Shown: piece by piece, positions 1-19,830 of the stretch | How the letters are laid out: each line of letters opens with the position of its first letter | How positions within the stretch are numbered: position 1 is the stretch's first letter | NCBI GenBank assembly: GCA_032718475.1 | Contig: JAUCBJ010006711.1 | Span: 163,881-227,880 of the forward strand | DNA length: 64,000 nucleotides | Direction: 5' to 3' | From: Nemertoderma westbladi | Lineage: Eukaryota; Animalia; Xenacoelomorpha | Position numbers and translations under genes: made by a program | Notes under the pieces: model-generated | Told to the model about the DNA's origin: nothing | Seen by the model: only the letters and a program-made list of their open reading frames with translations | Databases searched by the model: none

Positions 1-1
1 A

Positions 2-3120: not shown

Positions 3121-4566
3121 ATCTGCCGTCCGCTAATATATTTACTAATTTTACACAACTCCTGCAAAATCGCTTGTTCCTTTCTCTACCGATTGCTCAA
3201 TAGAGAGCTAACTGTTCGAATCTATGAGCCACGCAGGAATAACCAAAACAATAAACCCGAGTCGGCTCCCTAAGCTTACTTAAGACGAGTGCGAGAGGCC
3301 TTGCACTCAGAGTATTCTTACGCCTAATTCTATCACTATTAAAGCACGCTATTACCTACGTCTTTTCTAATCGCGAATACTGGGGGTTCTCTAACGTAAT
3401 GTGTGAATGCGAGAATATTTAAAATATCAAAAATGGTACAGTAATTGTCTCTCGTGGATAGTACCACTCTGGGTCTAAAATTGCCTGCAGCTGGCTTTAG
3501 GCCAGCAAATCACTAGCGTTTCGTGCGTACCGAATAGTGCGTTCTAGCTGATTGTCCGCTAATGCAAATAACCGCTCAGCGTGAATAGTTTACAGTACTC
3601 TAATTATTACTTTAGCTACTCTCCGCTATGCTGCGTACTAATTCTTAATTTTACTAATCAATTACAGTCACAAATATTTAACAGCGTACTAATTACTAAG
3701 AGTTCCAGAATACGTAATTCTAATTTATCACGCAACAGGTTTCGCTAGTAATAGCCTAAATTGCCGTATTACTTTGACCTAATCAGTAACTAATTGTTGT
3801 AACTAAGAAATAGAAATCAATCAAAGAGAAAAGAGCGCCTACCTAAACATTCACAATCATAGGCACACTTCAGTAACACACCAATCAGCGTCAGCAATCA
3901 CAGTTCGCAATTATGCAGTTAACTACTGTATAGCCCACAATTATGCGACTCACTATTCGTACTACACGCTCAACGTTCGAAACGTTGTGATACGTGCAGG
4001 CCTCTCCCGGGTACATATAGGACTCCTAACTAACCTGATTCCCGCCCCCCTAATACTAAATAGAGACGAAACCTGGATCATCAGCCCCCTAATTACCGTA
4101 CCGGCGATTGGTCTGCGTACCACAGCGTTAACTTCCCGACCGCAACGGTGACCCCACGCCAGCGTTGCTCGCTTTGAATCCTCCGCTCTCCCTTAGTCGC
4201 CCAACCCCCCGATGTGCCCACCGCCCGCTGGCGCCTTAGCCCTCCATTACGCTAATAGCTACCGTAGCGGCGCATGCAAATCACAAAGTCTGACAGTCTC
4301 AGAAATCCCTTAGGATTATTGCGCAGGAAAGAATCACATAGAACCATTAATCAAAAGTAGAAATCATAGTTCAGTTGTAATTAGCAGTAATCGAAGGAAT
4401 TAATTGAGAAACACAAGCAAGAGTAATCGCACTAGCAAATCATTTCAAGAAATTAATCAAATTGCAAAAATACTCTAAAATCCGTCAAAATTGAATAGAG
4501 ACAGCTCAGCAAGTACAACAGCAGTGAAGGTTGAATCGATCGATAGGCTCTACCGGCACACCGCCA

Positions 4567-4573
4567 ATTTATA
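4567..4573 (-). promoter_or_regulatory. TATA box (TATAAAT) of the LTR; second copy at 21482-21488
   Basis: CCTATAAATTGG on the - strand, downstream of CCAAT/ATTGG motifs at ~4621 and ~4671, in the gag-pol sense orientation. Confidence 0.55.
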
Positions 4574-4986
4574 GGTGATCCGGATGGGATGATGCAATAG
4601 GGTGACTCAATCGCTCTCCTATTGGCTCTCCAGTCCATGCTAGCATTAGACCAACCTGGAAGCAGTTAATCCAATAAGGAGGCCGGATTGTAGCCCTATT
4701 GCTCAAATTATTACCATATATGGTAATGGTTCACGTCTCTGGCTGCTGAATGGCCAGGACGGCGTCCCTATGCTAGCCCTATCAAACTAATATCAGCAAG
4801 CACAAAATCCAGGGTCCGAATAAACTCGCTACCCTGGAACTATCTACATATATCCTAATACAAAATTACGTAGGTAGGGCTACATACTATACAAAATGGA
4901 TGGTTTCAAATATATGGGCGTTTTGATTTCCCTACCTAAATACCACTGCGTTATTATGCCTTATCTAAAATATCATGCTGCACAAT

Positions 4987-5390: not shown

Positions 5391-5590
5391 TTTGCTAGGG
5401 TAAGTGAAAGGAGTAAGCCAAACCCGCAGGTTTGTCTCCCCAATCACTTCCTTCGCCTCTCTCATAATATAAATTCCAAATAGCTCAACTAGTGTATATG
5501 AGTCTAGTCGAAAATTTCCAAATGCTACAATATACATCAGAGCGACGATGATGTATATATCTAGAGTCTGTCGCCCTGTGCTATAATGTA

Positions 5591-5869
5591 TTATCGACCC
5601 GCTCCTGGGTTCTTTGGGCTCGCTCCTCTCTTCCGCCCCCTTCCCAGATACACTAATCTACCTCCAGTCGACTCCGTTGACTGCGTCCGTGAGGCGTCAC
5701 TCCCCGGAACCGGCGACGATGTTCCCTGAGCCCCGACAGATTCCCGGCTCGTGCTTCTTCCTCGGCCTCGTCCCAATTGTCGTGCTCCTGTGGTCGCTTC
5801 TGCCAACTCTTCCTTATGCAGTTGCACTCGCGCCTTCTCCGACGCTCCCTGCGCCTTGCGCTGCAACCT
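5591..5869 (-). CDS. In-frame C-terminal continuation of the extra ORF beyond a single TAG (basic, RG-rich tail)
   Basis: Same frame as 5870..9298 (..GCA TAG AGG TTG CAG..); 92 further sense codons ending GRGRKRGASPKNPGAGR. Confidence 0.6.
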   Translation of the reverse strand, partial: RLQRKAQGASEKARVQLHKEELAEATTGARQLGRGRGRSTSRESVGAQGTSSPVPGSDASRTQSTESTGGRLVYLGRGRKRGASPKNPGAGR

Positions 5870-8800
5870 CTATGCTTCTATAATAGAGTGATAGTGATCG
5901 TCCTTGACTTGACGCTTGTCTTGGACCCCTCCTCCTGGTTCTTTCCGCGAGCCTTGAGCTCCAGCGGTCGTCGCTGTGGTCGCTGCGATCCTTTGTTCCT
6001 GTATCCTCTCAGCGGTCAATGAACCCACTGGCACATGAGTCAACAAGAATTCGTTGCGGTATTGTATAGCCGCCATCCTCCAATCACCTCGCGCGCGTAC
6101 CACTTTTCTAGTCTCCGTAAATACACCCTTCGTGATGCGATCGCAAATAGCAACGAAGTTCCATGTGTACTTATTGTCCATGTTCAATTGTCTGAAGTAC
6201 TCTCGAACTACGATAACTCCAGTGTTTTGTGGAAGGTCTTGAGCAGTTAGGATGAGCTCCTGATATTGTGGTAGCGATTGTAGATATGGCTCGTACGCAA
6301 CATGCGATGGGTCTACCGCCCAAAACCCATATCCCGCTTTAAATGGTAACCAACGCATCTGCGCTTGAATATGGTAATCCGCCACACTCTCCCACTTGTC
6401 TAACATCTCCCGAAGTAGGTTAGCGCTATGGTTTTGAAAGGAATCATCTCGCAGCTGACATCTCGCGCTACGATGTCCCTTTACCCCACAATATCCACAT
6501 TGAGAAATGAAGACGGTGCACGTGTGAAACGAATGGTCGGTCTCATTACACCAACGACAGACTTTATGTGCCGCCTCCACTACCGCGTCGCACGACTTTA
6601 GATTGTGCCTTGTGCTGCCGCACAACTTGCACCTACGCGCTTGTGGAAACCAGGCCCTCTCGTATATGAGGTCTCCAATCGGTTTCGCACTTCCTTCCTT
6701 CCCAATGTCTAATACGATGTCGTCCTCTCCAGTCAACGGTTGTCGATCCGGAACAAAGTAAACATCCTCGCCCTTGTCCTCTATCTCCAATATTTCCTCC
6801 CGCGTTCGTTTCGGATATGTCTTCTCCACCGGAAGATCTACTCCGAACACCTCTACTAACGTTTCCGGCCAGCCCTCCTTAACAGGTCTATCAGCCTCCG
6901 AGTGGAAGGGAGTACCAAACCCGCGGGTTTGATTCCCGAACCACTTCTCCAAAGCTTCTGGCGTCGGATATTCCATCGACGGTCGGTCTCCCAAATCTCC
7001 GATGTTCTGTCGATATACTCCTTCGAATATCGCTAATCCTCTCCTAATCATCGACGTATTCTCTAACGATTGGTTGAAGAACGGGGTTAAGAAACGCTTC
7101 ATCACGTCGGATTGGATTCCCCCTTTCGAGCGAACGTATTGATCTCCTCCGAATACCAATGGATGACGCTTCAAAACTCGCGCAACGATATCCGCTAATA
7201 AACAAGTCACCGTGTTCGACTCAAGCACCAAATAATATTGTAGCGACGCACGGGGTGGCGCGCAAATGTTCCAATACACTAACGCTTGCCGCTTGAAGTG
7301 GGATTTGAACTCCGCTCCCGGTGGCGTGTTGTATTCGCCATACGCCTCCTCATACTTCTTTTGCGTCTTTAACTTAAAGTCCCAATTATACAACAAGTGT
7401 GCTATAAAGCCCATACCAGTCTTGGCAGAGTTGGGATACTCCCTATAAATTCCAATATCCTGTGCCCATAGCAACAATAGCTTGGTGTCGACAAACGGTC
7501 TCGGCAATCTATCTTCCAGATCAGTCATGGCGTTGAAGTCGCTCTCCAAATCGCTCTGGACTCCCGATCCCACCTTGACGTAATCTTGGTTGAGAATAGC
7601 CTCTCTAACTTTCTTTGGTAACATCCTGGCGTCGATACGCTCCGCTCCGTGCATACCTCCTCGCCTGCATACCTCCAAAATCTGTTCCCTAGGATCCTTC
7701 CCCTTCCGATATTGTGTCGTTATGATGGGCTCCGGTCTCTCTCGATCCGCCCTCACACGCATAAACACATGAGTCACACCATCGGCCGCACGAATTTGAA
7801 TACACTTGCTGGTCAAACATTCCTGATGGGACCCTCCTTCATTGTCGTAGAACATCACCCTCCAATCCTGCAGCGATTCCTCCGTCTTCCTCCACTGACG
7901 CTGAATCTCGTCTGATGGGGTCCACATGCGCTCGATAGCCTTGTGGTCATCATATCGGGTATAAGAACCCTTCCTCCTCAGCCACGTCTGGTCTACCTCC
8001 TCGTCGTCTGGGAATGTAGCCACCGCGACCCATACCTTGATGTACTTATCCAACCATCCGAATAGCTTACTCTCCTTCCCCGGAGCTCCAATCTTATCCA
8101 ACGTGTCATAATCTGTGATCTGCATTGGGACATCACGCAAGAACTTCGCGCATAAAACTTCCCGTAGACAGTCAACGTTCCAATGGTCCGCCATTCTTAC
8201 CATCGGCAAGAATCGTATCGCTTCTCGCGACTCCGGATGATCTACTAATATCGCAGGTTCGGTGCCGTCGGAATAATACACCGGTCCGGGTTGAGATACG
8301 ACCTGTGGAACAAATCCGGTCACTCTCCTCGTCTCCTCTTGATGTCTATCCGCGGTCTTATTATACTCCGCTATCCTGTTCTCAAATAACTCTTTCGCCT
8401 TCGCCGCTCGCTCCTCCTGCCGCAACGCGTCTATGTCGTCCTGATGCTCAGGCGTGAGGCTTCTCACTCGGTGAGGTGAAGTAAACGTAGTCCAGGGACT
8501 CGAGAGCTCCAAACCCGCGGGTTTGGTACCCGAGTCCCGCGCCGCTTCGCGCCACGCCTCTAGATCCTTGTAGGCTCGGTACAGCGAAATGGCCGCTGCC
8601 GTCTCTATCAAACTGGGTGTCGAACAGGGTTTAATCTCCGTATACGGATCTAATGTCGTAACGGTCGGCGTAATGGGTCTCGGAGGTCGCTTTCCGCTGA
8701 AGTCGATACTGATCGTCGGGTTGCTCATCGGGTAACCTCCCTCGTTGTATCTAAGGAATTGGTGAGCTGGACATCGCGTTAATATCGGTTCCGGATGTTG

Positions 8801-9298
8801 CTCGTCTAGTCGGTCGGGAATCGCCACGTCCTGTTTATTCATGCATTCACCACACTTGTAGAAGAGCTTGTATACGCTGAAGACTTTCGGCGTCTCCTGA
8901 TCCTCGCCTCGAGTCCTCCGATACAGATGCATTCCGTCGAACTGGTCTCGGACTGCAGGTAGAGGCTCCTCATGTCGTAAATACATATTCATATGGTATA
9001 GTCGTGCGATTTCCTCGTCCGGATCTGCGCTAATGTCGCACACGTCCAAAGCGAAGTCGTAGGGATACCGCGTGCGATACTCTCTCCGCAAGACTTCCAT
9101 CCGGTCCCCCAACGCTCTCATTCTTTCTCTCCGTAATTCTTTATCATAACTTGGTTTGTACTTCCCGTTCAGCTCCATCACGGACCGCCCATGGTAGTAA
9201 ACGTTAGAGTCTTTACATCCTGGTCGCGCGAATGGTAGCTCCGCCTCCTCTCTGGCAGTAAATCCTCTGCGCGGTTGCGCTCTAATATCCCTCTCCAT
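5870..9298 (-). CDS. Extra ORF (ORF3, 1142 aa): DEDDy-like 3'-5' exonuclease domain plus three CCHC zinc knuckles
   Basis: ExoI MFYDNEG (~7840), CIQI, LPKKVREAILNQDYVKVGSGVQSD (ExoII, ~7570), FVDT, GMGFIAHLL, ExoIII-like QYYLVLE (~7230). Knuckles CKLCGSTRHNLKSC, CRWCNETDHSFHTC, CGYCGVKGHRSARC (~6455-6630). No signal peptide or TM segment seen. Confidence 0.8.
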   Translation of the reverse strand: MERDIRAQPRRGFTAREEAELPFARPGCKDSNVYYHGRSVMELNGKYKPSYDKELRRERMRALGDRMEVLRREYRTRYPYDFALDVCDISADPDEEIARLYHMNMYLRHEEPLPAVRDQFDGMHLYRRTRGEDQETPKVFSVYKLFYKCGECMNKQDVAIPDRLDEQHPEPILTRCPAHQFLRYNEGGYPMSNPTISIDFSGKRPPRPITPTVTTLDPYTEIKPCSTPSLIETAAAISLYRAYKDLEAWREAARDSGTKPAGLELSSPWTTFTSPHRVRSLTPEHQDDIDALRQEERAAKAKELFENRIAEYNKTADRHQEETRRVTGFVPQVVSQPGPVYYSDGTEPAILVDHPESREAIRFLPMVRMADHWNVDCLREVLCAKFLRDVPMQITDYDTLDKIGAPGKESKLFGWLDKYIKVWVAVATFPDDEEVDQTWLRRKGSYTRYDDHKAIERMWTPSDEIQRQWRKTEESLQDWRVMFYDNEGGSHQECLTSKCIQIRAADGVTHVFMRVRADRERPEPIITTQYRKGKDPREQILEVCRRGGMHGAERIDARMLPKKVREAILNQDYVKVGSGVQSDLESDFNAMTDLEDRLPRPFVDTKLLLLWAQDIGIYREYPNSAKTGMGFIAHLLYNWDFKLKTQKKYEEAYGEYNTPPGAEFKSHFKRQALVYWNICAPPRASLQYYLVLESNTVTCLLADIVARVLKRHPLVFGGDQYVRSKGGIQSDVMKRFLTPFFNQSLENTSMIRRGLAIFEGVYRQNIGDLGDRPSMEYPTPEALEKWFGNQTRGFGTPFHSEADRPVKEGWPETLVEVFGVDLPVEKTYPKRTREEILEIEDKGEDVYFVPDRQPLTGEDDIVLDIGKEGSAKPIGDLIYERAWFPQARRCKLCGSTRHNLKSCDAVVEAAHKVCRWCNETDHSFHTCTVFISQCGYCGVKGHRSARCQLRDDSFQNHSANLLREMLDKWESVADYHIQAQMRWLPFKAGYGFWAVDPSHVAYEPYLQSLPQYQELILTAQDLPQNTGVIVVREYFRQLNMDNKYTWNFVAICDRITKGVFTETRKVVRARGDWRMAAIQYRNEFLLTHVPVGSLTAERIQEQRIAATTATTAGAQGSRKEPGGGVQDKRQVKDDHYHSIIEA

Positions 9299-9405
9299 TA
9301 TGCCTCGCGTATATACATATATATATATCCCAATAAGTGCCGTTACGTAACCAACTACACTGTGGGTAAATCAGTTAGATGTCGCCGAAGGACAGACCTC
9401 CCGAA

Positions 9406-9428
9406 CCCCCCCCCCCCCCCCCCCCCCC
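9406..9428. repeat. C23 homopolymer (G23 on the element sense strand) in the pol-ORF3 spacer
   Basis: Directly visible; a (TA)n tract lies at ~9310-9328. Confidence 0.95.
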
Positions 9429-10026
9429 GCCTTCCAGCAGTTCAGGTTCGACTCTCTAGATCCCGTCTCTTCCTAACTAACTATCCTCTAACCTATTCCC
9501 ATGCATAGCGCAAAAACTTTGGAGATAACCAACCTTTGGAGATGGCCGTGACCAACTCACTTTTTGATGCCCAAACTACTCCCATTACTCGTACTAAACT
9601 ACAGTAGTTAGAAAGGACCATAGCCACAATACTCGACTATACCAAACCCACAGGTTTGATAATCGAACATCACACATCCTGCAAACTACTGAGTGGGGTC
9701 CATGTACGCCTCTGGTGCTACTAACCTTTAGCACCTTAGTTGCACTGTTGGCACCAATCTGTGGAAGTTGCTAAACTCAATTTACACTCCTACGTAATAT
9801 AGCCGTCACCATGGTTTCTAAATGCTATTTTCCAGGCTTCACAACTTTTCAAATTACTGTTTATCTATAGACGAATTCTAAAACGCGTCTATACACAGCG
9901 TCTGGAATTGTCTTGGGTTCACTTCTAATTTTTAAAATTTTGTAATTTTCCAAAAATTTTGAAAATAAAATTTTGTTTTGATACCCACCAGACAAAACTC
10001 AACGCAAATCACCACAACCCCGCTCC

Positions 10027-10063
10027 TATGCATTTCCTTGTATTTGCATACGAGGAATGCATA
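10027..10063 (-). other. Stem-loop just 3' of the pol stop codon, with a GCAA tetraloop on the sense strand
   Basis: Sense strand reads TATGCATTCCTCGTAT-GCAA-ATACAAGGAAATGCATA (one mismatch, one bulge). Confidence 0.6.
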
Positions 10064-10084
10064 CGATGTGAGTTGCGTCCAACA

Positions 10085-13000
10085 CTAACTCTGTTTTGAG
10101 ACAGGAGACAAATTATAATCTCCCGTCTCGATACGTGTCTCCTCTAATAACACAATATCTTGGACCGGTCGGTCCAAGGTGTGTAAACCATTAGTTTTAC
10201 ACTTTTTTGGGTGCGGACACTTGCACCTAATTTTCACAGTGACTGTGCGCACTATGTTTTGCACGTCTGGGTGTGTGTGCAAGATCACTCCAGTCTCCCA
10301 ATACTTTCTCTTGACAATGGGTTCGGTTATCAATACGTAGTCTCCCTTTTGGAGACTCCGAACCGTTTTGTACCACTTTGTTCTGGTGGATATGGTGGGA
10401 AGATAGTATTCCCGCCAATATTCCCAGAATTTGTACGCGACTAATTGAGTCATTTTCCAGCTCTTACGACTATATAGGTCGGCACTAATGGGTTCTGATG
10501 CCGGCACAAGAAATGCTGGACTCTGCATTAGCAAATGATTCGGCGTTAATGCAACACCGTCTGGCAACATAGCTATCGGCCTCGAGTTTAGGGTATGCTC
10601 GATTTCAATGAAAGCTGTGACCAGTTCGTCGTCGGTAAGTTGTTTGTTCACAGGCAATGTTTTGGCAATGGCCTGTTTTACAGAGCGAACCAAACGCTCC
10701 CAAATTCCTCCTCTCCAAGGACTTTCTGGAGTATTAAATCTCCATTCTACTCGTTGCGGCAAAAGTGCTGCAGAAATTTCCTTATTCTGTGCTGCTTTAT
10801 GAGCCGCGTTCAACTCGCTATTCCCTCCGACAAAGTTTGTACCCTTGTCAGAGTAGAACGCCTTTACTAGTCCTCTCCTGGCCATAAATCTCTTTAAGGC
10901 CAGGAGCAGAGATTTGGTCGACATGTCTGCCACACGCTCGATATGTATGGCTCTACTCGCCATACATGTCAGTAGCAGACCCCATCGCTTGTGGGTCAGC
11001 CGTCCACTCTTTGCTTCAATCGGACCAAAACAGTCCACCCCTGTATTCGTAAAGGGTGGGTCATATGCCTGCACTCTCGCTTCCGGGAGTTCAGCCATCT
11101 CCTGTTCCAATACTCTGGCGTTCACCCTCTTGCAAACCAGACAGGCGTCATACATAGTGCCGACTGCCCTGCTTGGCTGCAATAGAATGAATCGCTGTCT
11201 CGCTGCCGACAGACAGTGTAACTTTCCCGCGTGATGCAACCTCTTATGTATATCCCATAGAATCGCTCTTTGCAATTCTATCGGGTAACTAGGGATTATC
11301 ACTGGGAACCGAAACTGTGAGTTTATGTCGACAGTCTGGATTCTCGATCTATGACAAATCAAACCCTTATGGATTAATGGACTCCATTTTCTAAGGGGTT
11401 TATAGAGAACTGGTCGATGAGCCGATAATAGATGGAATTCTTTCGGGAAGGCACACATTTGATAATGTTTCAAATGCTTTAATTCCGCTTGATCAATCTC
11501 ATCCTCTGTCAGAGGTTGTTTCAATTTCCGAATTCGCTCACTATTGGTGCTCAATGGTTCTCTCAAATGTTTTGAATGTTTTAAACAAAGGTACGAAACG
11601 TATCGGCTTAACCACGCAGGTCTTTTACAAATTGTCAGCCAAGAGGCAGACGAATTTAGTAATTTGTCATAAATACTGCATGACTCTAATGCCAGCGACG
11701 GTTGTCCGCTAACTAATGGACGTTTCGAATCCAAACCCGCAGGTTTGGAAACCAAAGGATCCATTGTGTCGGTCATTTTCTGTCCGTCACTTACCAATTG
11801 TGACTCCGGTTTAGTCTGTAAGGGCGGTTTTATGTCATAACTTACCCTTCCTGACCTAATAGTCACGTAAGTCTGTTGGTCTGACAGGTCTCCGGGCCGC
11901 TCCAATGACTCTTCAGGCTGCTCCAATGACTCTTCAGGCCGCTCCAATGACTTAAGTTTGGCTTTAGACTTCGACTTAGAGACTTTCTCCACTTTGACTT
12001 CTGCATCTTCAGGCATCGGATTGGTCACTATCTTTAGTCGCTCTGGCCAATGTTCCTGTGTCCTCGTTAGAAAATCAGGTCCATGCAACCAAAACTCCTG
12101 CGACTCTTCCTGACAGAATTCCGCCGGCATTGCACCTCTCGAAGTTATGTCGGCCGGGTTCAACACTCCCGGACAATGTCTCCATTGTTCCTTCGTCGAA
12201 AAGTCAACGATCTGAGCGCGTCTATTGGCCACAAATGTCTTTAGTGCAATATTGTCGGCCGCAATGTATACTAACACCAAGGATGCGTCCGTCCAATAGA
12301 ATAAGGTCAATGTCGTGTCTAACTCCTCAGTTATTTGCTTACTTACCTCGACCGAAACTACAGCCGCCTGTAACTCTGCACGAGGGACAGTCATGTATTT
12401 GACCGGCATTGTCTTTGATCTAGAAGTCACAAAAGCCGTCTCAAACTTGTCCTGACTTACCTCTCGGCGAAGGTAGGCTACCATACCAAAACCGGTGTCA
12501 CTTGCGTCACTAAATAGGTGGAGCTCTAAATCAGCTGGGAATACCAGCTGATTCGGAAGGTAGGAACGGGGTACATCTATATTTTTCAATAGATGCAACT
12601 CGGCTTCCCACTCCCTCCACTGCTTTGCATGTATAGGAGATATTGGTTCGTCCCACTCTAAGTCGGACAACCAAATTTTCCTCATGCACGCTCGTGCCTG
12701 TAATATAACCGGACTGATAAAGTTCATCGGGTCAAATAGTCTACTCAATGTCGATAAGCAAATCCTCTTAGTCAAAACTTTGTCTGGGCTACTGGGCTCA
12801 AATCTAACTCTTACCTGGAACTTATCTGAGTTCGGGTTCCAAGCGAGTCCCAGTACTCGCGCCATGGGAATTGGTTCTACCCCCAATTCTATGTCTCCGC
12901 TCCCGCGATCCTTTACCGGGAACGACTCTAATAGGGCCTCCGAGTTCGTAGTGAACTTGGTCAGAGGAAATCCCCCTGTAGCCAAGCACTCCTGCAGGCC

Positions 13001-16000
13001 GTGAGCCACTTCTATGGCTTGTTCCGCTGTGTCCTTGGACACCAATCCGTCGTCCATATAGAAGTTTCTCAATATAGACTCGATTACTTCTACTGGATAC
13101 TTACCAATCTGGGCTGTTGCCGTTTTCTTTAAAACGAACAGCGTGCCATTCGGACTATCGCGGGCGCCAAATATCCTAACGTACATCTGGTATGTAACCA
13201 CTGGGCCGGATAAGTCTTCATTCTCAAACCAGAGAAATCGAAGGCTATCCTGGTCTGCCTTACAGGCTCTTACCTGGTGGAACATCGCCTCGATGTCACA
13301 AGTAAATGCGAATCGCCGCTGTCTAAAACGCAACAGTATTCCGATCAAATAGTTATTCAGGTTGGGACCATCCATCAACTCTGAATTCAGGGACATACCT
13401 CTATAGACTGCTGCGCAGTCGTTGACTACTCGGACTTTGTCTGGCTTGTCAGGGTGAGTCACATAGTGGTGTGGAAGGTAATAAGTCTGGTCTGTCACCA
13501 AGTCAGGGTCCTCTACCTTCCCAGCAAATCCCTTGGCGAAATAGTTGTTGATCTGGGCGCAATACTTCTCCCTAATGTCCGGATTCTTCAACAACCGAGC
13601 CCTTACTCCGTTCAATCTTTTCAAGGCTAAGTTGTAGTTGTTCTCCAACTTAGGTGGTTGTCGACGCCACAACATTCCAACTTCAAAATGTCCAGTCGGT
13701 AGTAGACGTATGGTATCTTCCATCATCTCCAACGACCGTTTCTCATCAGTAGACATGGCTAGGTCATATCCACCGGGTTCCATTGCGTCCCTATCCAGCC
13801 ATTCGACGGTTCTAGCTCCTGTCTCGAGGTCCTGGCGTATCAATTCCTTTTGTAATTCCTCCTCACTGTATTGGAAAATGTCTAGGTCTCGAGATTTAGC
13901 CACTTGACCCTCCACTATGTCTGTATAAGTCAAAACGTTAGTCAAATAGGTAGCGTGGGCCGCTGAACCAGACCCACGGGTCTGATAACAGTAGTCCTCG
14001 GGTTCACTATCTGTCCGGTCATTATGAAGTGGTTCCGACAACCTAACATTATCGGGAATCAACTCCTCATCTGACTCGCTAAAGTCACTATAGTGGTCAA
14101 TACAGGTTCTCCTAAACTCGTCTATGTCTGGTGGTTTTACTAACGGTGGTTGAGCTATAGGCTGTAATTCGTCGTATCTATTCATTGGCTTGTCGCCACC
14201 TGTAAACTCATAAGACATGGGTACTCGTGTATACCAACCTAGTATGGTCCTATGGGCATGTGGTCCATTGACATGCGGCTCAGCTGGTCTCGTTTCCCAT
14301 ATCTGGTGTGCGATCAGCTGTTCTGCACCAATCAACATAGAAACATTCCTATAACCTACCTGGTGTCTGGGTATCCTGAGCTTGTCAAAATACTCCTGTG
14401 CTATGGGACTCATCGGCGGCACCTTACCTAACTGCCTGCCGAATCCCTTCATAGCTAGACACTTAAATCCGTCCAATGGCAAAGCTTTCCGTTCTTGTCG
14501 AGTATGCTGGTCTCTCGGAAGTAGGGAATCTAGTTCCACCGAAATTCTGTGTCCCTTGAGGTCACCTACCCCATGCATAGACTTCAACTCTATTTGGATC
14601 TCCTCGGCGTCCTGGAAGCTAGAAACAGCTCTCGCCACTTCCTCGTCGATATACGATAATGTGGACGCAGTGTCCAACATCACATATATTCGCTTCGATC
14701 CCTTATCGCTGGTGAGTTTCACCGGAATCACGCTAAATATTTCCGACGTGGCCGATGATAAATACGTCCGCGCGCTGGTCGATGAACTATCCGCGGTGAA
14801 ACCTTGGCAGGTCACTTCTCTCGCGCTCGACTCGCCATCCTCGTCCGACGAACCTGGTTGGTAACCATCGTCCTGGATGCCAGTGTACGTATTCCTCCTT
14901 ATCGATACGGGTTCTTTGCTCCCCTTCCTTTGAGGATTTCGCTGTAAGTAACGGTCCGTTGGGGTATGGAAATCCGCATGTAGCAACTTGTGATGTAGTC
15001 TGCCGCATTCCATGCATCCGTCCTTGCTGTTCGGGCACTGCCGCCGTACATGTCCTGGCGCAAGACAAGCCCAACAGGTGTCCAACGTCCGCACTTGAAC
15101 TCTTCTCTGTTCTGAATTTAATTCCTTGAACCGTCTGCAACTATCTAACTTATGGTCGTCAGATCTTACCTCCTTTAGTAAACAGTATTGGCAACCTACA
15201 AATCCATCCGGCAACTCCTGTTGCTTTAACCTAGGTCTATCTAACCGCTCACCTGACCATACTCGCGAGTCTGATCTAAAGGCTGGGGTATTCGAATTAT
15301 ATCTGTCTACTGAGTTATAAGTCACAGTGGTCCTGTCATCGTCAAAACTTACCATAGACTTACCGGTAACAGGTTTAGACTCTCTCATATTCTCTTCTGA
15401 GAAGTTTGATTTCATCTCTGCTACTGCGTCTGTGGCTATCATGTCATGAATATGCTGAAGTGTCAATACTTTACCTTGGCCCTCCAACTTATTCTCTAAT
15501 TTGCGCCATTTCTGTCGGTAACGCATGTTTAGACGTCTTATTACGCTCTTTAAAACTTCGGCGTGATCACCATGATGAGGTAGATTCACCGTCCTCAAGA
15601 TGTCCAATGCGTTCGAAATAGCGTTCGCTAAATTCAACAGCTCAAACGGAGTTGTAATCCTTCCGCCCTTACCCAAGTCTTCTACTATCGACTGCGCCAT
15701 CTTGGTTTTATTCCCGTAGATGTCGCTAAGCGTCTTCATTGCTAACTCGAATGCTCTTTCGTTGCCGACGAAATTATCAGCAATGGCTCTAGGTTCTCGA
15801 TGGAGCATCTGAAGCAAATAGTTGAACTTCTCGTTGGGAGTAAAGGTGCTGTTGGTTAGCTGCTCGTCGACATAGGTTTTAAAGGTCCTCCAGTGCTTGT
15901 GGTTGCCCATAAACTTCTGGGGTTGTTGCGTCGGCAGTCCTTGCCTAGCAGCAAACTTACCTATGTCCCTAAGGGTTGCGTCGTTCCGGGTTAACAAATG

Positions 16001-17788
16001 GTTTAGTTCCGCAGGGTTGTTAAGTCTGGTCCTTTCCCGGTGGTTCCAACTTACCTGCTCCGCGTTGGTCCTTCTTTCCTTATAGTTTCGGGACTTCTGA
16101 CGTCTCATTTCTTCCTCTTCATCGCTTGACTCGGTGTCAGTCCTTAGCGCTCGCGATGATTTGCGCGCCGAGGCCCTGACCCAAGCATCCTGAATAAATC
16201 TTTCTGCCGAATTTTCGAAATTGGGATTATGGATATTCGGGACAGGCGTCCTTACCTGAGGTCTATGTGGTATAGTTTCCTCCGATATGCGTACTCGTTG
16301 ACTAGGCTGGACTTTATCTAACTCAGGCCTGCTGGGATTAGAATTACTTCTTACCTGGGCTGCTTCCTTTAACCGTAGGTTGCTAAGCATGTCCGTTATA
16401 GGTTGGATGTGCGGCGATATAGCTTGCGCTAAACTAGCACTTAACTCATCCCTCGTAATAAATTCCTGGCTAGGGTTCTGTTGTATAGTCGGCTCTATCT
16501 GAGTAATCCGCTGTCTCTCATATGATCCCTCTTCCGGTTTAACCCGGAAGTTCTCCGTCGAACTGGGTCGGCGCTCCGTCCGCGTATTCCAAACCCTCGG
16601 GTTCGGTTCGCCAAGTACTCGTTCCGTCGGAGTTTCTTCTCTAAATTCTCCGTTCTCGCGTTCGATATATAGTGGTGCGGTGTTCCGATGACGTAGATCC
16701 TGAGCGATGGGTGAAACACTAATACCAACTGGCGTGCGATATGTAGAGAATGGTTTAGCGATCCGTGTACTCGTAATAGCTGGACCGAGTATAGGAATTC
16801 TGGTCGTCGTTGACTCGCGTATAGTCGGAGTTCTCGCTTCCTGTTCGGCCTTCTGCAGTGCGAACAGTTCTCGCAACTCTGTCCCCACACTCGCCCCACA
16901 TTCTTCGAGCATTCGCATCCCCTTCTCGGCGATTTCGTTCGCCTTCCTAGTCCGTTCTTCGCTCTCTAAACTTAATCTCGCACTTTCCAACTGCGCCAGT
17001 TTACGCTCTTCTTCTTCCCTCGCTCGTCTCGCTGCGCTCTCTTCTTCTACTCGCGACCTTTCTTCATACAATGCGCGTCTTCTTTTCTCGATCTCGAGTT
17101 CGCGTTCCTTGCGTCCGCGTTCGAGTTGAAGCTCGCGCTCCTTCTGTTCACGATCGAGTTTCTTGCGCTCGCGTTCGGCTTGGAGTTCGCGTTTCTTCGC
17201 TTCCTGTTCGCATTCAAGTTGGAGTTCGCGTTCTCTCTGTTCGCGTTCGAGTTGGAGTTCGCGTTTCTTCGCTTCCCGCTCGCATTCAAGTTGGAGTTCG
17301 CGTTCTCTCTGTTCGCGTTCGAGTTCCTCGCGCTCGCGCTCGGCTTGGAGTTCGCGTTCCCTTTGCTCGCGTTCCGCTCGCTCGCGCTTACTTATCTCTT
17401 CCAACTCTCGTAACTCTGCGTCCAACTTACGTGTGCGCTCCCGTTCCCGCTCGGCTTCCTTCCGTGCTTCCTGTGCACGCAAAACTTCCGCCTGCTGTTC
17501 GTCTAGTCGGCGTCTTCTCTCCTCCGCCGAGTTGTGAGAAACAAGGGATCTAGCACATATTACCTTACCTCGCGCGTGACTAACCTGGGAATCGCCGCTG
17601 TCTCTAGATGCATCGTCGGTTGGAGTCAACGTCCTCTGTTGGATGTTCTCCGTCGTCGGTAGCACCTGACCTGGTACCACCACTCCATTCTGCATCAGCC
17701 AGCTAGTAACTTCCCTCTGATACCGGCGCTCCTCTTTATCCTGCGTCTCTTCTCGCTCCACTAAGTCTCTCAACTCTGCGTCACTCAC
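10085..17788 (-). CDS. BEL/Pao Gag-Pol polyprotein (Gag, protease, RT, RNase H, integrase)
   Basis: Three BEL knuckles (CQYC..H..C, CWACLAPGHVRRQC, CMECGRLHHKLLH); PR MLDTAST; RT YLPHH, CDIEAMFHQV, FYMDDG; RH LFSDAS, PRAEL, WTDA, NPADITSRG; IN HKRLHH..CLVC, GVDCFGP, YSDKGTNF, WERLVRSVK; C-terminal RPVQDIVLLE. Confidence 0.97.
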   Translation of the reverse strand: MSDAELRDLVEREETQDKEERRYQREVTSWLMQNGVVVPGQVLPTTENIQQRTLTPTDDASRDSGDSQVSHARGKVICARSLVSHNSAEERRRRLDEQQAEVLRAQEARKEAERERERTRKLDAELRELEEISKRERAEREQRERELQAEREREELEREQRERELQLECEREAKKRELQLEREQRERELQLECEQEAKKRELQAERERKKLDREQKERELQLERGRKERELEIEKRRRALYEERSRVEEESAARRAREEEERKLAQLESARLSLESEERTRKANEIAEKGMRMLEECGASVGTELRELFALQKAEQEARTPTIRESTTTRIPILGPAITSTRIAKPFSTYRTPVGISVSPIAQDLRHRNTAPLYIERENGEFREETPTERVLGEPNPRVWNTRTERRPSSTENFRVKPEEGSYERQRITQIEPTIQQNPSQEFITRDELSASLAQAISPHIQPITDMLSNLRLKEAAQVRSNSNPSRPELDKVQPSQRVRISEETIPHRPQVRTPVPNIHNPNFENSAERFIQDAWVRASARKSSRALRTDTESSDEEEEMRRQKSRNYKERRTNAEQVSWNHRERTRLNNPAELNHLLTRNDATLRDIGKFAARQGLPTQQPQKFMGNHKHWRTFKTYVDEQLTNSTFTPNEKFNYLLQMLHREPRAIADNFVGNERAFELAMKTLSDIYGNKTKMAQSIVEDLGKGGRITTPFELLNLANAISNALDILRTVNLPHHGDHAEVLKSVIRRLNMRYRQKWRKLENKLEGQGKVLTLQHIHDMIATDAVAEMKSNFSEENMRESKPVTGKSMVSFDDDRTTVTYNSVDRYNSNTPAFRSDSRVWSGERLDRPRLKQQELPDGFVGCQYCLLKEVRSDDHKLDSCRRFKELNSEQRRVQVRTLDTCWACLAPGHVRRQCPNSKDGCMECGRLHHKLLHADFHTPTDRYLQRNPQRKGSKEPVSIRRNTYTGIQDDGYQPGSSDEDGESSAREVTCQGFTADSSSTSARTYLSSATSEIFSVIPVKLTSDKGSKRIYVMLDTASTLSYIDEEVARAVSSFQDAEEIQIELKSMHGVGDLKGHRISVELDSLLPRDQHTRQERKALPLDGFKCLAMKGFGRQLGKVPPMSPIAQEYFDKLRIPRHQVGYRNVSMLIGAEQLIAHQIWETRPAEPHVNGPHAHRTILGWYTRVPMSYEFTGGDKPMNRYDELQPIAQPPLVKPPDIDEFRRTCIDHYSDFSESDEELIPDNVRLSEPLHNDRTDSEPEDYCYQTRGSGSAAHATYLTNVLTYTDIVEGQVAKSRDLDIFQYSEEELQKELIRQDLETGARTVEWLDRDAMEPGGYDLAMSTDEKRSLEMMEDTIRLLPTGHFEVGMLWRRQPPKLENNYNLALKRLNGVRARLLKNPDIREKYCAQINNYFAKGFAGKVEDPDLVTDQTYYLPHHYVTHPDKPDKVRVVNDCAAVYRGMSLNSELMDGPNLNNYLIGILLRFRQRRFAFTCDIEAMFHQVRACKADQDSLRFLWFENEDLSGPVVTYQMYVRIFGARDSPNGTLFVLKKTATAQIGKYPVEVIESILRNFYMDDGLVSKDTAEQAIEVAHGLQECLATGGFPLTKFTTNSEALLESFPVKDRGSGDIELGVEPIPMARVLGLAWNPNSDKFQVRVRFEPSSPDKVLTKRICLSTLSRLFDPMNFISPVILQARACMRKIWLSDLEWDEPISPIHAKQWREWEAELHLLKNIDVPRSYLPNQLVFPADLELHLFSDASDTGFGMVAYLRREVSQDKFETAFVTSRSKTMPVKYMTVPRAELQAAVVSVEVSKQITEELDTTLTLFYWTDASLVLVYIAADNIALKTFVANRRAQIVDFSTKEQWRHCPGVLNPADITSRGAMPAEFCQEESQEFWLHGPDFLTRTQEHWPERLKIVTNPMPEDAEVKVEKVSKSKSKAKLKSLERPEESLEQPEESLERPGDLSDQQTYVTIRSGRVSYDIKPPLQTKPESQLVSDGQKMTDTMDPLVSKPAGLDSKRPLVSGQPSLALESCSIYDKLLNSSASWLTICKRPAWLSRYVSYLCLKHSKHLREPLSTNSERIRKLKQPLTEDEIDQAELKHLKHYQMCAFPKEFHLLSAHRPVLYKPLRKWSPLIHKGLICHRSRIQTVDINSQFRFPVIIPSYPIELQRAILWDIHKRLHHAGKLHCLSAARQRFILLQPSRAVGTMYDACLVCKRVNARVLEQEMAELPEARVQAYDPPFTNTGVDCFGPIEAKSGRLTHKRWGLLLTCMASRAIHIERVADMSTKSLLLALKRFMARRGLVKAFYSDKGTNFVGGNSELNAAHKAAQNKEISAALLPQRVEWRFNTPESPWRGGIWERLVRSVKQAIAKTLPVNKQLTDDELVTAFIEIEHTLNSRPIAMLPDGVALTPNHLLMQSPAFLVPASEPISADLYSRKSWKMTQLVAYKFWEYWREYYLPTISTRTKWYKTVRSLQKGDYVLITEPIVKRKYWETGVILHTHPDVQNIVRTVTVKIRCKCPHPKKCKTNGLHTLDRPVQDIVLLEETRIETGDYNLSPVSKQS
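17060..17400 (-). repeat. Coding tandem repeats giving an E/R-rich coiled coil in Gag (RELQxExE units, 33-36 bp)
   Basis: TTGGAGTTCGCGTT recurs on the + strand; protein RERELQAERE/KRELQLEREQ. Confidence 0.85.
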
Positions 17789-18534
17789 CTGAGTCGCCTG
17801 CGCTTGTGATGCCCATAGCAGCCAGTTCTCTGTCCTAACTCGTCGGATCGCTCCGATAACTCGCGGTGCTCCAACAAGGCTGCTAAAACCCTGTCGTAAA
17901 TCCTCGTCGCCACGTCGCTCGACTGAGACTCTACTGCCTTCTTCGCTAGGACTGCAAGCTCCTCCGTCTGCTTGAATAACGCTGAGTTATATCCTCTTCT
18001 AATCTCTGCTAACTCTACCCTCCCGATGTTGGCTGAGTCGGCCAACATTTTTCTTACCTTGTCCGCCGTCCGAGTTATATGTCCGGCATGCGCGCGAAGT
18101 TTCTTCTTTATCGCGATATCAAGTTCTCTATCACTTACCTGACTTACACTCGGTGGACTTGAAGGATTATTTCGGGAACTACGGGTACTCCTTACAGCCG
18201 TTGGGACCACGGCACTTACCATACCCACAGGTCTGGAAACCGGGCTCCGGGCTCTCGCTTCTGCTACACTATCCTCCCTATCACTCACCTCTGTCCGGGC
18301 TGCCGTACAGTCCTTCCTTACAGTAGCGGTAGGGGATCCTAATACTATTACTTGAGGTTGCTGTTCTTCCTCACTAGTCACTGTCTCGTCCTCCTGTTCA
18401 CTTACGTCAGCGTCACTCGCTGCGTCGTCATAGTCGGCATTGTCGTCAACAGTAATATTGACGCTATCGTCAGTCGGCGGTCCAGCCGCCGTCTCGTAGC
18501 TGTCCTCTAGTGCCTCCTTGTCTGAGACACTCAT
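17785..18534 (-). CDS. Gag N-terminal segment, joined to the main polyprotein by a -1 frame change near 17835
   Basis: ATG start, acidic N-terminus and helical segment; overlaps the open upstream extension (RTENWLLWASQAQATQV) of the 10085..17788 frame, which itself starts only at a GTG. Confidence 0.85.
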   Translation of the reverse strand: MSVSDKEALEDSYETAAGPPTDDSVNITVDDNADYDDAASDADVSEQEDETVTSEEEQQPQVIVLGSPTATVRKDCTAARTEVSDREDSVAEARARSPVSRPVGMVSAVVPTAVRSTRSSRNNPSSPPSVSQVSDRELDIAIKKKLRAHAGHITRTADKVRKMLADSANIGRVELAEIRRGYNSALFKQTEELAVLAKKAVESQSSDVATRIYDRVLAALLEHRELSERSDELGQRTGCYGHHKRRRLR

Positions 18535-19379
18535 AGTCTAAATAATGTTTGCCTTCCGGCAAAATATCTCGCAAAGGTTCGAGATATGATTATAATTTAA
18601 CCGAAATACGGTCAAATTATTTGTCAAATAATCAGTTGGTCCAAAATGTCAAAATAAATTCGCAATGCAATATTGTGAATTTAATGGGGTATATAGTTAT
18701 AGCAAATACTAGCACAATATTTAAACAAAAATATTATTATATAGCTACTATATAGTATTAAATACCGGTATAGCACAAAATAACTCTGAATCTAATACAA
18801 AATATTCAAAATATACTTGCCACCCGAATATTTCTAATTTTATATATATATAGCTCTAATCAACGTAATTTTAATTTCAAATATTATATGTATCCACTAA
18901 CGCGTGGCTACATCTTCGGGTTGCGACTCTCTCTAACTCTCTCTCTAACTTGAGCGATTCAAAACCATGGTCGGCTAAACCTAAATATCCTAACTAATAA
19001 ATTGAGTTCAGCTTCGCAGTTAAACAACCGATAATTTTTTACTGCTTCCACAAACACACTGGTGCCAACAGAACAACTAACCTTGTTTGCTGTGAGATTC
19101 CACGTCCGCGTCCAAAGATTCAGGCCCTTCGCTGATTGCAAACCGAACCCGCAGACCCACACGAACCCCAAACTCAGAAGTTCCGTCTTGCCATGTATCT
19201 CCAGATGGTATAAAATAACTAAGCGGTTACCTAACATACCGGTACAAAACTCTAGAATTTTACAAAATAATTTTGACCGAAACTGAATTCTCGCAAACCT
19301 AGCTAATAATTTTCAAAAAACTTACTAATTACAGTTTGCCCTAAGGCCTAAGGAACTGCTGTATTCGCAATTAGCAAAA

Positions 19380-19830
19380 ACGCACTACCGTACATTCACT
19401 GTATGCAGTACAGTAAGTAAAACAGTACACCAACCTAACAGCCTAATGATACTGTGTGTGGTACGGCAAAACAAATGTCCCTTCTACCGTCCGCAGTAAC
19501 AACAATCAGCCTAATGTACTACTGTACTATCGTACGCAGCCAGTGAATACAGTAATCTAAACTAACAGCCTAAAAGAATATACTCAATGTTCTACCGTAC
19601 GCTAGCCTATAGCCTACAGCAGACGATCACGTGCTCCAATTTATTGCCTAATACTATGATATTACTATCAGCCTAAGAATACTCTATTGACCGCTGCAAG
19701 CAACAGCCAATAACGCGTATTACTGATACGAAGTATCAGTAAATCTAAATCTTCACGGCCTAAGAATATACTCTATGTCCTACTGTACGTGGTAGGCCTA
19801 CAGCAGACAATAATGCGCGTATTACTGATA
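19380..19830. repeat. Degenerate direct repeats in the 5' leader/U5 region
   Basis: GCCTAA(A)GAATATACTC..GCCTACAGCAGAC at ~19568 and ~19758; CGCGTATTACTGATA at ~19714 and ~19816; several CAGCCTAA units. Confidence 0.6.

What the first reader, a model, noticed from the sequence alone, without database searches (positions are those of the whole stretch)
5418..18236. Eight dispersed copies of a 17-18 bp palindrome spaced along the whole internal region, independent of reading frame
Seen (+ strand): 5418 CCAAACCCGCAGGTTTG; 6915 CCAAACCCGCGGGTTTG; 8509 CCAAACCCGCGGGTTTGG (perfect palindrome); 9642 CCAAACCCACAGGTTTG; 11731 CCAAACCCGCAGGTTTGG; 13968 CCAGACCCACGGGTCTG (symmetric double change that keeps the dyad); 16589 CCAAACCCTCGGGTTCGG; 18219 CCATACCCACAGGTCTGG. 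Gaps are 1497, 1594, 1133, 2089, 2237, 2621 and 1630 bp. Two copies are non-coding. The six coding copies use different frames (KPAGL, QTRGF/QTRGS, PNPRV, RPVGM) and sit in linkers or low-complexity regions. I saw none in the LTRs or the outer element. Inference: a selected nucleic-acid-level signal, such as a dimeric protein binding site (chromatin or anti-silencing) or self-complementary RNA dimerisation/packaging sites distributed along a long genome, possibly recognised by Gag or ORF3 knuckles.
Basis: partly seen in the sequence, partly recalled or inferred. Interest (0 to 1): 0.85.

Follow-up and report, generated by a model that had tools for sequence, protein, structure and literature searches.

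The report
Evenly spaced hairpin palindromes in retrotransposon
An 18.6-kb BEL/Pao retrotransposon of an animal genome carries nine evenly spaced copies of one 18-base palindrome, in all three reading frames and in non-coding spacers, which likely fold into small hairpins on its RNA that its own zinc-knuckle proteins would bind for packaging, an arrangement I did not find described for such elements.

Summary
All 8 listed sites are at the stated coordinates, and there is a probable ninth at 15257, in the middle of the largest gap. They lie only in the internal region of an 18.6-kb BEL/Pao LTR retrotransposon that is coded on the minus strand. There are none in its LTRs, the outer element or the satellite.

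Chance does not explain the sites: 6 hits with at most 3 mismatches against 0.01 expected. Protein coding does not explain them either. They use three frames plus two spacers, and codon choice is pushed towards the motif. Spacing is far more even than random (about 1.6 kb, CV 0.24, P about 2e-4).

On the sense strand each site is a 7-bp stem with a YGYG loop whose two G are invariant. Of 18 transitions away from the palindrome, 16 are G.U-compatible on the sense strand and the other 2 are compensated. This favours an RNA-level signal over a symmetric double-stranded DNA site.

The best reading, inferred and not tested, is an array of RNA hairpins bound by the element's CCHC zinc-knuckle proteins to handle a very long genomic RNA.

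Seventy-seven distant BEL/Pao relatives have nothing comparable. Close relatives could not be obtained, so conservation across sister families remains untested.

The parts
18219..18236 (-). Site 1. Sense strand CCAGACCTGTGGGTATGG, in ORF1, frame 1 (RPVGM).
16589..16606 (-). Site 2. Sense strand CCGAACCCGAGGGTTTGG, gag-pol residue 461, frame 0 (PNPRVW). The loop A is private to this copy.
   Evidence: In one search, place 16597 reads G (+ strand) in about 100% of depth in 4 of 4 runs.
15257..15274 (-). Site 3, the probable ninth member, not in the finding. Sense strand TCAGACTCGCGAGTATGG, gag-pol residue 905, frame 0. It carries a compensated U7-A12 pair.
13968..13985 (-). Site 4. Sense strand TCAGACCCGTGGGTCTGG, gag-pol residue 1334, frame 2 (QTRGS). 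It carries a compensated G4-C15 pair.
11731..11748 (-). Site 5. Sense strand CCAAACCTGCGGGTTTGG, gag-pol residue 2080, frame 1 (KPAGL). It lies in an insertion of about 60 aa that is absent from 11 relatives.
9642..9659 (-). Site 6. Sense strand TCAAACCTGTGGGTTTGG, in the non-coding spacer between gag-pol and ORF3.
8509..8526 (-). Site 7. A perfect palindrome, CCAAACCCGCGGGTTTGG, ORF3 residue 282, frame 1 (KPAGL). Its flanks can add a 10-bp lower stem.
6915..6932 (-). Site 8. Sense strand TCAAACCCGCGGGTTTGG, ORF3 residue 813, frame 2 (QTRGF).
5418..5435 (-). Site 9. Sense strand ACAAACCTGCGGGTTTGG, non-coding, 435 nt downstream of ORF3.
19826..21490 (-). 5' LTR of the inner element in the sense orientation. 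It holds no motif copy.
   Evidence: 1665 bp, 3 differences from the other LTR
2911..4575 (-). 3' LTR of the inner element. It holds no motif copy.
10085..17986 (-). gag-pol open frame, 2633 codons. Pfam matches: DUF1759 (gag), Peptidase_A17 (Pao), Integrase_H2C2 and DUF5641.
17785..18537 (-). ORF1 open frame, 250 codons. It overlaps the start of the gag-pol frame in another frame.
   Evidence: table 4
5870..9370 (-). ORF3, 1166 codons, first Met at 9298. It has no Pfam family and only 8 weak relatives.
15035..15076 (-). Gag CCHC zinc knuckle (CWACLAPGHVRRQC), a candidate reader of the hairpins.
6458..6631 (-). Three CCHC zinc knuckles of ORF3, a candidate reader of the hairpins.

Best explanation
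Nine near-identical 18-nt palindromes lie about every 1.6 kb along the sense strand of the internal region of an 18.6-kb BEL/Pao retrotransposon. They likely act as RNA stem-loops (7-bp stem, YGYG tetraloop) that the element's own CCHC zinc-knuckle proteins would bind to recognise, condense and package its unusually long genomic RNA.

Shown directly:
- the sites, their frame independence and their even spacing;
- codon choice bent towards the motif;
- the hairpin potential and the invariance of the two loop G;
- the sense-strand G.U pattern and two compensated pairs;
- the presence of the zinc knuckles.

Inferred:
- that the RNA rather than the DNA is the active form;
- that the purpose is packaging or condensation.
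For: 1. The sites are not chance and not protein-driven. There are 6 hits at <=3 mismatches against 0.01 expected. Codon-order shuffles give a mean of 0.01. Three frames and two non-coding spacers are used. At the 7 coding sites the synonymous codons give 17 mismatches to the motif against 39.2 expected from the element's codon usage, and 47 of 49 stem pairs against 33 expected. These sites were chosen because they match, so the P values of 4e-11 and 3e-9 are inflated.

2. The spacing is even. Gaps run from 1133 to 2237 nt, with CV 0.24.

3. The structure is kept. 95% of 63 stem cells pair, and 2 pairs changed on both sides (A-U to G-C at 13968; C-G to U-A at 15257); 20 of 500 shuffles reach this. 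In a 218-nt context the hairpin forms with probability >=0.64 at 8 of 9 sites on the sense strand, but with probability >=0.9 at only 5 of 9 on the antisense strand, where the other four are <=0.22.

4. The strand asymmetry favours RNA. Of 18 transitions away from the palindrome, 16 are C>U or A>G on the sense strand, which keeps G.U pairing. The only 2 of the opposite kind are the compensated ones (p 0.0013). In the centre the count is 7 C>U against 0 G>A (p 0.016). Family-wide variation shows no such bias: in run X1 the + strand counts are C>T 169, G>A 131, A>G 147 and T>C 141.

5. The loop is Y-G-Y-G, with both G invariant in 9 of 9 sites. HIV-1 NC zinc knuckles bind exactly the 2nd and 4th G of the GGAG and GGUG tetraloops (PMC7599994, passages read). 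The element encodes one CCHC knuckle in Gag and three in ORF3.

6. The family agrees as far as it was seen. The one loop letter that departs from YGYG (16597) is private to this copy: all four runs read the canonical letter. No variant at >=3% share falls in the 30-nt block at 11727-11756.

7. All nine sites lie in the transcribed internal region and none lies in the LTRs.
Against: - No RNA, binding or packaging data exist here.
- NC-type hairpins do not need a conserved stem sequence, yet here the stem sequence is nearly the same at all nine sites. That points to a sequence-specific reader, to inter-site pairing or to recent copying.
- Two sites (18219, 15257) have a G.A mismatch in mid-stem, and the 15257 stem alone is weak (-0.6 kcal/mol).
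- At 18219 the sense hairpin has only 0.03 probability in context.
- Complementarity of the flanks beyond the 18-mer is modest (combined z about -3) and equal on both strands.
- The nine copies may share ancestry by copying, so the 16:2 count may overstate the number of independent events.
- The within-family test at 11731 had no power: 5 variable places in 161, with about 0.9 expected in the 30-nt block.
- 0 of 77 distant BEL/Pao relatives have a comparable array, so there is no comparative support.
Confidence: 0.4

Rival explanations
1. RNA-RNA pairing sites. Each palindrome would pair with its counterpart on a second genomic RNA as an 18-bp extended duplex. This would give a multi-point dimer linkage that keeps two very long RNAs in register for template switching. 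Alternatively, sites would pair with each other within one RNA to compact it.
For: - The 18-mers are self-complementary, and predicted homodimer duplexes (-16 to -36 kcal/mol on the sense strand) are stronger than two hairpins.
- The centre varies only as Y opposite an invariant G, so every central position could still pair as G-C or G.U in a duplex.
- Palindromes are a recurrent theme of retroviral dimer linkages, genomes are linked at sites besides the DIS, and dimer sites raise template switching (PMC516450, passages read).
- Even spacing suits a zipper.
Against: - In-register pairing needs only self-complementarity, not the same sequence at all nine sites; identical sites invite out-of-register pairing.
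- The two compensated pairs (13968, 15257) keep intra-site pairing but would create A.C mismatches with other sites, which argues against site-to-site compaction.
- Known dimer initiation uses palindromic loops, not 4-nt loops.
Confidence: 0.2
2. Double-stranded DNA sites for a symmetric dimeric protein of the host or the element, for example a chromatin, insulator or anti-silencing factor, spaced along the integrated copy.
For: - The dyad symmetry, CCANACC-N4-GGTNTGG, has a degenerate 4th position in the half-site that a protein could tolerate: A, G or T across 18 half-sites.
- The stem sequence is conserved, as expected for sequence-specific recognition.
- The spacing is even.
Against: - A symmetric DNA site predicts mirror-symmetric substitutions, but the count is 16 of one strand class against 2 of the other (p 0.0013), and 7:0 at the central CpGs, where deamination in duplex DNA should give TG and CA equally.
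- The two changes of the minority class are exactly the compensated pairs.
- There is no copy in the LTRs, where regulatory DNA sites would be expected.
Confidence: 0.12
3. Sense-RNA hairpins read by a host factor rather than by the element's own proteins, for example for nuclear export, localisation or stability of a long unspliced transcript, or to block processive piRNA biogenesis along it.
For: The RNA-level evidence is the same as for the best explanation.
Against: - Known export or localisation elements are single or clustered, not spaced through coding sequence (recalled, not tested).
- There is no Rfam match: 0 matches at E<=1 over 18,580 bases on both strands.
- The loop pattern xGxG fits zinc-knuckle recognition, and the element carries four knuckles.
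Confidence: 0.13
4. No function. A short palindrome would have spread inside the element by copying (reverse-transcriptase template jumps or small insertions) into places where the proteins tolerate six extra codons, and is simply young.
For: - All coding copies lie in inter-domain linkers, and site 11731 sits in an insertion of about 60 aa that is absent from 11 of 11 aligned relatives.
- The motif has no stop codon in any frame (peptides).
- The motif is absent from 77 of 77 distant relatives.
Against: - Passive spread predicts irregular spacing, but the spacing is even (P 2e-4).
- Passive spread does not predict strand-asymmetric, wobble-compatible drift, compensated pairs or invariant loop G.
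- Similarity ends within about 8 nt of the core, and the flanks differ between sites.
- The family is old enough to hold contigs under 90% alike (2157 of 28,417 laid in X1). Even so, the two sites for which family variation was seen are canonical in the bulk of the family.
Confidence: 0.1

Closest known systems
HIV-1 packaging-signal hairpins SL2 and SL3 (GGUG and GGAG tetraloops bound by the two NC zinc knuckles)
   Same: A short stem capped by a tetraloop whose 2nd and 4th bases are G. The element encodes CCHC knuckles. (PMC7599994, passages read; loop pattern.)
   Different: The HIV hairpins cluster in the 5' leader, are few and have unrelated stems. Here nine copies with nearly the same stem are spread through coding sequence and spacers at about 1.6-kb steps. 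Loop positions 1 and 3 are pyrimidines.
Dispersed packaging signals of ssRNA viruses and hepatitis B virus (Stockley/Twarock model)
   Same: Multiple stem-loops sharing a motif, distributed across the whole genome including coding regions and proposed to bind coat protein during assembly. (PMC6281560 and PMC5699041, abstracts seen in the listings.)
   Different: Those signals are degenerate and share little beyond a loop motif. Here the whole 18-mer is conserved and the spacing is regular. That class of signal was not described for LTR retroelements in the papers I saw.
Retroviral dimer initiation/linkage palindromes (HIV-1 DIS, HFV and MoMLV palindromes)
   Same: Self-complementary sequence on the genomic RNA, matured into an extended duplex by NC and linked to template switching. 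(PMC516450, passages read.)
   Different: A DIS palindrome sits in a loop near the 5' end, as one or a few copies. Here the palindrome is the stem itself, with a 4-nt loop, and is repeated nine times along the genome.
Su(Hw) binding-site array of the Drosophila gypsy element (recalled from memory, no call)
   Same: A retroelement carrying many copies of one protein-binding DNA motif.
   Different: The gypsy sites are tightly clustered in a non-coding leader, are not palindromic and act as DNA. Here the sites are dispersed, partly coding and show RNA-type substitution patterns.
In-frame palindromic mini-insertions such as Rickettsia palindromic elements or mitochondrial GC-cluster palindromes (recalled from memory, no call)
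   Same: Short palindromes found inside protein-coding genes in tolerated positions.
   Different: Those are longer mobile units scattered over a whole genome without regular spacing. Here the motif is confined to one retroelement's internal region and is evenly spaced.

Membership tests
BEL/Pao LTR retrotransposon (host element of the motif) | Pao-type pol domains in the order gag, PR, RT, IN, flanked by LTRs | tested here: met
   Pfam finds DUF1759, Peptidase_A17, Integrase_H2C2 and DUF5641 in that order on the minus strand. The LTRs are 1665 bp with 3 differences. The best pol relatives are BEL/Pao proteins of marine invertebrates at about 40% identity.
NC-binding packaging hairpins of retroviruses | A stem-loop with exposed G at loop positions 2 and 4 | tested here: met
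   The loop is Y-G-Y-G and both G are invariant in 9 of 9 sites. A 7-bp stem is predicted at 9 of 9 sites as isolated 18-mers.
NC-binding packaging hairpins of retroviruses | Location in the 5' leader, upstream of or around the gag start | tested here: not met
   The sites run from 5418 to 18236, through three ORFs and two spacers.
NC-binding packaging hairpins of retroviruses | Specific binding by the element's NC or Gag and a requirement for encapsidation | not testable with these tools
   Only the presence of CCHC knuckles is shown.
Dispersed packaging signals (PS-mediated assembly) | Many stem-loops with a shared motif spread over the genome | tested here: met
   Nine sites span 12.8 kb with even spacing.
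Dispersed packaging signals (PS-mediated assembly) | Degenerate sequence in which only a minimal loop motif is shared | tested here: not met
   10 of 30 aligned columns are invariant and the whole stem is conserved.
Retroviral dimer initiation site | A self-complementary sequence presented in a hairpin loop for kissing | tested here: not met
   The palindrome forms the stem, the loop is only 4 nt, and the loop is fully self-complementary (CGCG) at only 3 of 9 sites.
Retroviral dimer initiation site | Dimerisation of the RNA through the site | not testable with these tools
   Only predicted duplex energies are available.
Palindromic DNA site of a dimeric protein | Mirror-symmetric conservation and substitution in the two half-sites | tested here: not met
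   Transitions split 16 to 2 between the two strand classes (p 0.0013). Position 1 varies in 5 of 9 sites while its mirror, position 18, is invariant.
Mobile palindromic mini-element | Copies scattered in the genome outside one host element, without regular spacing | tested here: inconclusive
   There are none in the other 45 kb of the window and the spacing is regular. The host genome itself could not be searched.
Any Rfam family | A match to a curated covariance model | tested here: not met
   0 matches at E<=1 over 2911-21490 on both strands.

The most novel reading that the evidence does not exclude
A giant retrotransposon has written a regularly spaced array of identical protein-binding RNA hairpins through its own genes, bending codons and linker peptides to do so. 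Its zinc-knuckle proteins can then seize and fold a roughly 17-kb genomic RNA at nine anchor points. This would be a distributed packaging code in a retroelement, where all known packaging and dimerisation signals are concentrated at the 5' end.
Probability: 0.35. Interest if true: 0.8.

Novelty: new variant of a known kind. Interest (0 to 1): 0.66.

Why it matters
Packaging and dimerisation signals of retroviruses and LTR retrotransposons are understood as compact 5'-leader structures. A conserved, evenly spaced hairpin array that overrides codon choice throughout an 18.6-kb element would show that a retroelement can use a genome-wide cis code. It could help explain how BEL/Pao elements two to three times the usual size handle their RNA.

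It would also give a simple, testable system: one 18-nt hairpin, four zinc knuckles. And it shows that frame-independent motif recurrence can reveal RNA signals hidden in coding sequence.

Tried and rejected
- The window's own genome is not held, so the genome-wide distribution of the motif could not be tested.
- Earlier findings of the scan: nothing for this place or these sequences. A word search gave only loose analogues.
- Sequencing runs: no RNA holder is listed. X4 is only guessed to be RNA and laid nothing on 11660-11820, so nothing can be said on expression.
- The first laying showed only 40 of 1227 variable places, so motif against flank conservation could not be counted over the whole element. 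The second laying was complete for 161 bases but underpowered.
- Close relatives were not found. A viral contigs protein scan found none. A protein search with a 401-aa piece around site 11731 gave 0 hits at E<=1e-20 among proteins of 220-702 aa. The best full-length pol relatives are only about 40% identical.
- A motif scan of viral contigs gave 32 contigs with one match each, none with several, which I take as chance in phage-like contigs.
- In the 77 metagenome BEL/Pao loci (548,371 bases) there are 7 hits at <=4 mismatches, three of them in one family. The largest number of dispersed copies of any near-palindrome of >=16 nt is 3 (9 loci), against 8 in the inner element. The looser 14-mer screen is noise. 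The model search gave 1 hit at E 0.87.
- The L041/L042/L052 palindrome lies about 95 residues from the place homologous to site 11731, so it is not a conserved counterpart.
- The outer element has one unrelated palindrome at 22934 with no further copies.
- Extension of the hairpins by the flanks gives a combined z of about -3 on both strands, so it does not tell the strands apart.
- Ideas dropped after reading the sequences:
  - Internal polypurine tracts for plus-strand priming: the motif is not purine-rich.
  - U1 / 5' splice-site-like sequences: GGU follows the motif at only 5 of 9 sites.
  - RUNX-like or Grainyhead-like DNA motifs: recalled consensus sequences, no exact fit, not tested.
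- ORF3 identity: no Pfam family even at E<=1, and 8 weak hits in 1.84 billion representatives, of which 7 of 8 have no Pfam family.
- Paper searches for a precedent listed none for evenly spaced palindromes or hairpins inside an LTR retrotransposon. Only open-access full text was searched.
Full report
WHAT THE REGION IS

Window 2911-21490 is one LTR retrotransposon of 18,580 bp. Its 1665-bp LTRs (2911-4575 and 19826-21490) differ at 3 places. All long open frames are on the minus strand:
- ORF1: 18537..17785.
- A 2633-codon gag-pol frame: 17986..10085.
- ORF3: 9370..5870, 1166 codons.

Pfam finds DUF1759, Peptidase_A17 (Pao), Integrase_H2C2 and DUF5641 in gag-pol. This is therefore a BEL/Pao element, two to three times the size of its relatives: the 77 related contigs are 2-12 kb long. 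The best pol relatives are about 40% identical and come from sea urchins, molluscs and unnamed assemblies.

The element is inserted into a different BEL/Pao element on the + strand, whose pol is 31% identical. A 416-bp satellite array fills 26061-62627. The sense strand of the motif-bearing element is thus the minus strand of the window.

CHECKING THE OBSERVATION

Counts against chance:
- The window holds 6 matches to CCAAACCCGCGGGTTTGG with at most 3 mismatches, where 0.01 is expected. 0 of 100 shuffles reach 6.
- It holds 8 matches with at most 4 mismatches and 9 with at most 5.
- Shuffling codon order inside the ORFs gives 0.01 hits at <=3 mismatches. Keeping the proteins and shuffling synonymous codons gives 1.08 (maximum 4 in 300 shuffles). 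The observed count is 6.

The ninth site:
- It lies at 15257, in the middle of the largest gap.
- I treat it as probable.

Where the sites are not: nothing else in the window scores below E 0.1 except the mirror images of the sites. There are no copies in the LTRs, the outer element or the satellite.

Frames:
- Frame 0: 16589 and 15257.
- Frame 1: 18219, 11731 and 8509.
- Frame 2: 13968 and 6915.
- Sites 9642 and 5418 are outside the ORFs.

The coding copies sit between domains. Site 11731 lies inside an insertion of about 60 residues that none of 11 aligned relatives has.

A NUCLEIC-ACID SIGNAL, NOT A PROTEIN REPEAT

Given the encoded peptides and the element's own codon usage, the seven coding sites should differ from the motif at 39.2 positions. 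They differ at 17. They should form 33 of 49 stem pairs and form 47. These sites were picked because they match, so the formal P values are inflated. The whole-region shuffles are the unbiased version of this test.

Spacing is strikingly even. Gaps are 1497, 1594, 1133, 2089, 2237, 1289, 1332 and 1630 nt, with CV 0.24. Only 0.022% of random placements of nine points are that regular.

WHICH STRAND AND WHICH MOLECULE

Aligned on the sense strand, the sites read [C/U/A]C[A/G][A/G]AC[C/U]-YGYG-[G/A]GU[U/C/A]UGG. This is a 7-bp stem with a 4-nt loop.
- 95% of the 63 stem cells pair.
- Two pairs changed on both sides and still pair: A-U to G-C at 13968, and C-G to U-A at 15257.
- Three cells do not pair: A.G at the stem end of 5418, and G.A in mid-stem at 18219 and 15257.

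The pattern of departures from the perfect palindrome is asymmetric:
- 16 transitions are C>U or A>G on the sense strand. These leave a G.U pair in sense RNA but an A.C mismatch in the complement.
- 2 transitions are of the opposite kind, and these two are exactly the compensated pairs (p 0.0013).
- At the two central CpGs there are 7 C>U and no G>A (p 0.016). Deamination in duplex DNA would give both equally.

The family's general variation shows no such bias: in X1, + strand C>T is 169 against G>A 131.

Folding in a 218-nt context gives the hairpin a probability of at least 0.64 at 8 of 9 sites on the sense strand. On the antisense strand it reaches 0.9 at only 5 of 9.

The flanks add some further pairing, for example a 10-bp lower stem at 8509. 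Against shuffled flanks this is modest (combined z about -3) and the same on both strands.

One caveat applies. If the copies arose by duplication of each other, some shared changes are not independent.

THE FAMILY AND ITS RELATIVES

The family is very abundant in DNA runs of one coded organism: 28,417 contigs were laid in X1, of which 2157 are under 90% alike.

Only two statements about the motif could be drawn from the runs:
- The single loop letter that breaks YGYG, at 16597, is private to the window copy. All four runs read the canonical letter at about 100% of depth.
- In the 161 bases around site 11731, only 5 places vary at >=3% share: 11712, 11714, 11721, 11759 and 11766. None is in the 30-nt block 11727-11756. 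About 0.9 would be expected there, so this has no statistical weight.

Distant relatives do not have the feature:
- In 77 metagenome BEL/Pao loci (548 kb), no near-palindrome of >=16 nt has more than 3 dispersed copies, against 8 in this element by the same script.
- The motif model gives a single hit, at E 0.87.

MECHANISM

The data fit best a signal that works as sense-strand RNA. The loop G are invariant while the loop pyrimidines drift. That excludes a hairpin with an irrelevant loop. It leaves two readings: the G are read by a protein, or they pair in an intermolecular duplex.

- HIV-1 NC zinc knuckles grip the 2nd and 4th G of the GGAG and GGUG tetraloops (PMC7599994, passages).
- This element has one CCHC knuckle in Gag and three in the orphan ORF3.
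- A shared reader explains why all nine stems have the same sequence.
- The compensated pairs preserve pairing within a site, not between sites.
- Regular anchor points make sense for condensing an RNA of about 17 kb.

The duplex or dimer-linkage reading remains a serious rival. Palindromes, extended duplexes and extra linkage points are documented for retroviruses (PMC516450, passages). A symmetric DNA-protein site, a host RNA-binding reader and neutral copy-paste spread are less likely, for the reasons given under the rival explanations. None of the functional steps was tested.

COMPARISON AND NOVELTY

The parts are familiar: NC-type hairpins, self-complementary RNA sites, and the dispersed packaging signals of ssRNA viruses and HBV (PMC6281560 and PMC5699041, abstracts only). 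The arrangement is not. It consists of nine nearly identical hairpins at even steps through the coding body of an LTR retrotransposon, imposed on three reading frames.

Five full-text searches listed no such description, and Rfam has no match. I therefore rate it a new variant of a known kind. It is interesting but rests on one copy plus limited family data.

A note of this scan on a conserved hairpin pair inside a fungal LINE (e1-7579191) is a loose parallel that I did not test.

Noticed in passing
window 26061-62627: A satellite array with a 416-bp period, about 88 copies at 94-95% identity and about 32% GC. It starts right after the outer retroelement and fills more than half of the window.
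   Followed up: no
window 21728-21988: Eight tandem copies of a 32-bp unit with a palindromic core (GGTACGTAGTACC), just outside the inner element's LTR and within the outer element.
   Followed up: no
window 5870-9370 (minus strand): ORF3 is an orphan protein of 1166 codons with three CCHC zinc knuckles near its C-terminal end. It has no Pfam family and only 8 weak relatives among 1.84 billion representatives. In DNA runs the ORF3 region has about half the summed depth of gag-pol, so many family copies may lack it or differ there.
   Followed up: partly
window 17785-17986 (minus strand): ORF1 and the gag-pol frame overlap by about 200 nt in different frames. Contigs of all four runs mostly differ from the window copy by one base in length within this overlap. 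The window copy is therefore probably frameshifted, and most copies likely have one continuous frame (table 4).
   Followed up: partly
window 17169-17325 (minus strand coding): A 72-bp tandem repeat (2.2 copies) encodes a glutamate/arginine-rich coiled-coil-like stretch (ERELQLE...) in the long N-terminal part of gag-pol.
   Followed up: no
window 19720-19742 and 19664-19742: A hairpin with 10-bp arms lies 85-105 nt inside the 5' LTR boundary in the leader. Contigs show several alternative short insertions or duplications there (tables 5 and 5c). No clear tRNA-type primer-binding site or polypurine tract is seen next to the LTRs.
   Followed up: no
window 1-2910 and 21491-26060 (+ strand): The outer BEL/Pao element is split by the inner one. 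Its pol is only 31% identical to the inner pol. A 681-codon open frame at 22502-24547 has no Pfam family.
   Followed up: partly
window 6430-8492, 5459-5525 and 15288-15370: Some deletion joints seen in family contigs end within 15-25 nt of motif sites 8509, 5418 and 15257. Only 15 of 115 joints were shown, so this may be coincidence (table 5).
   Followed up: no
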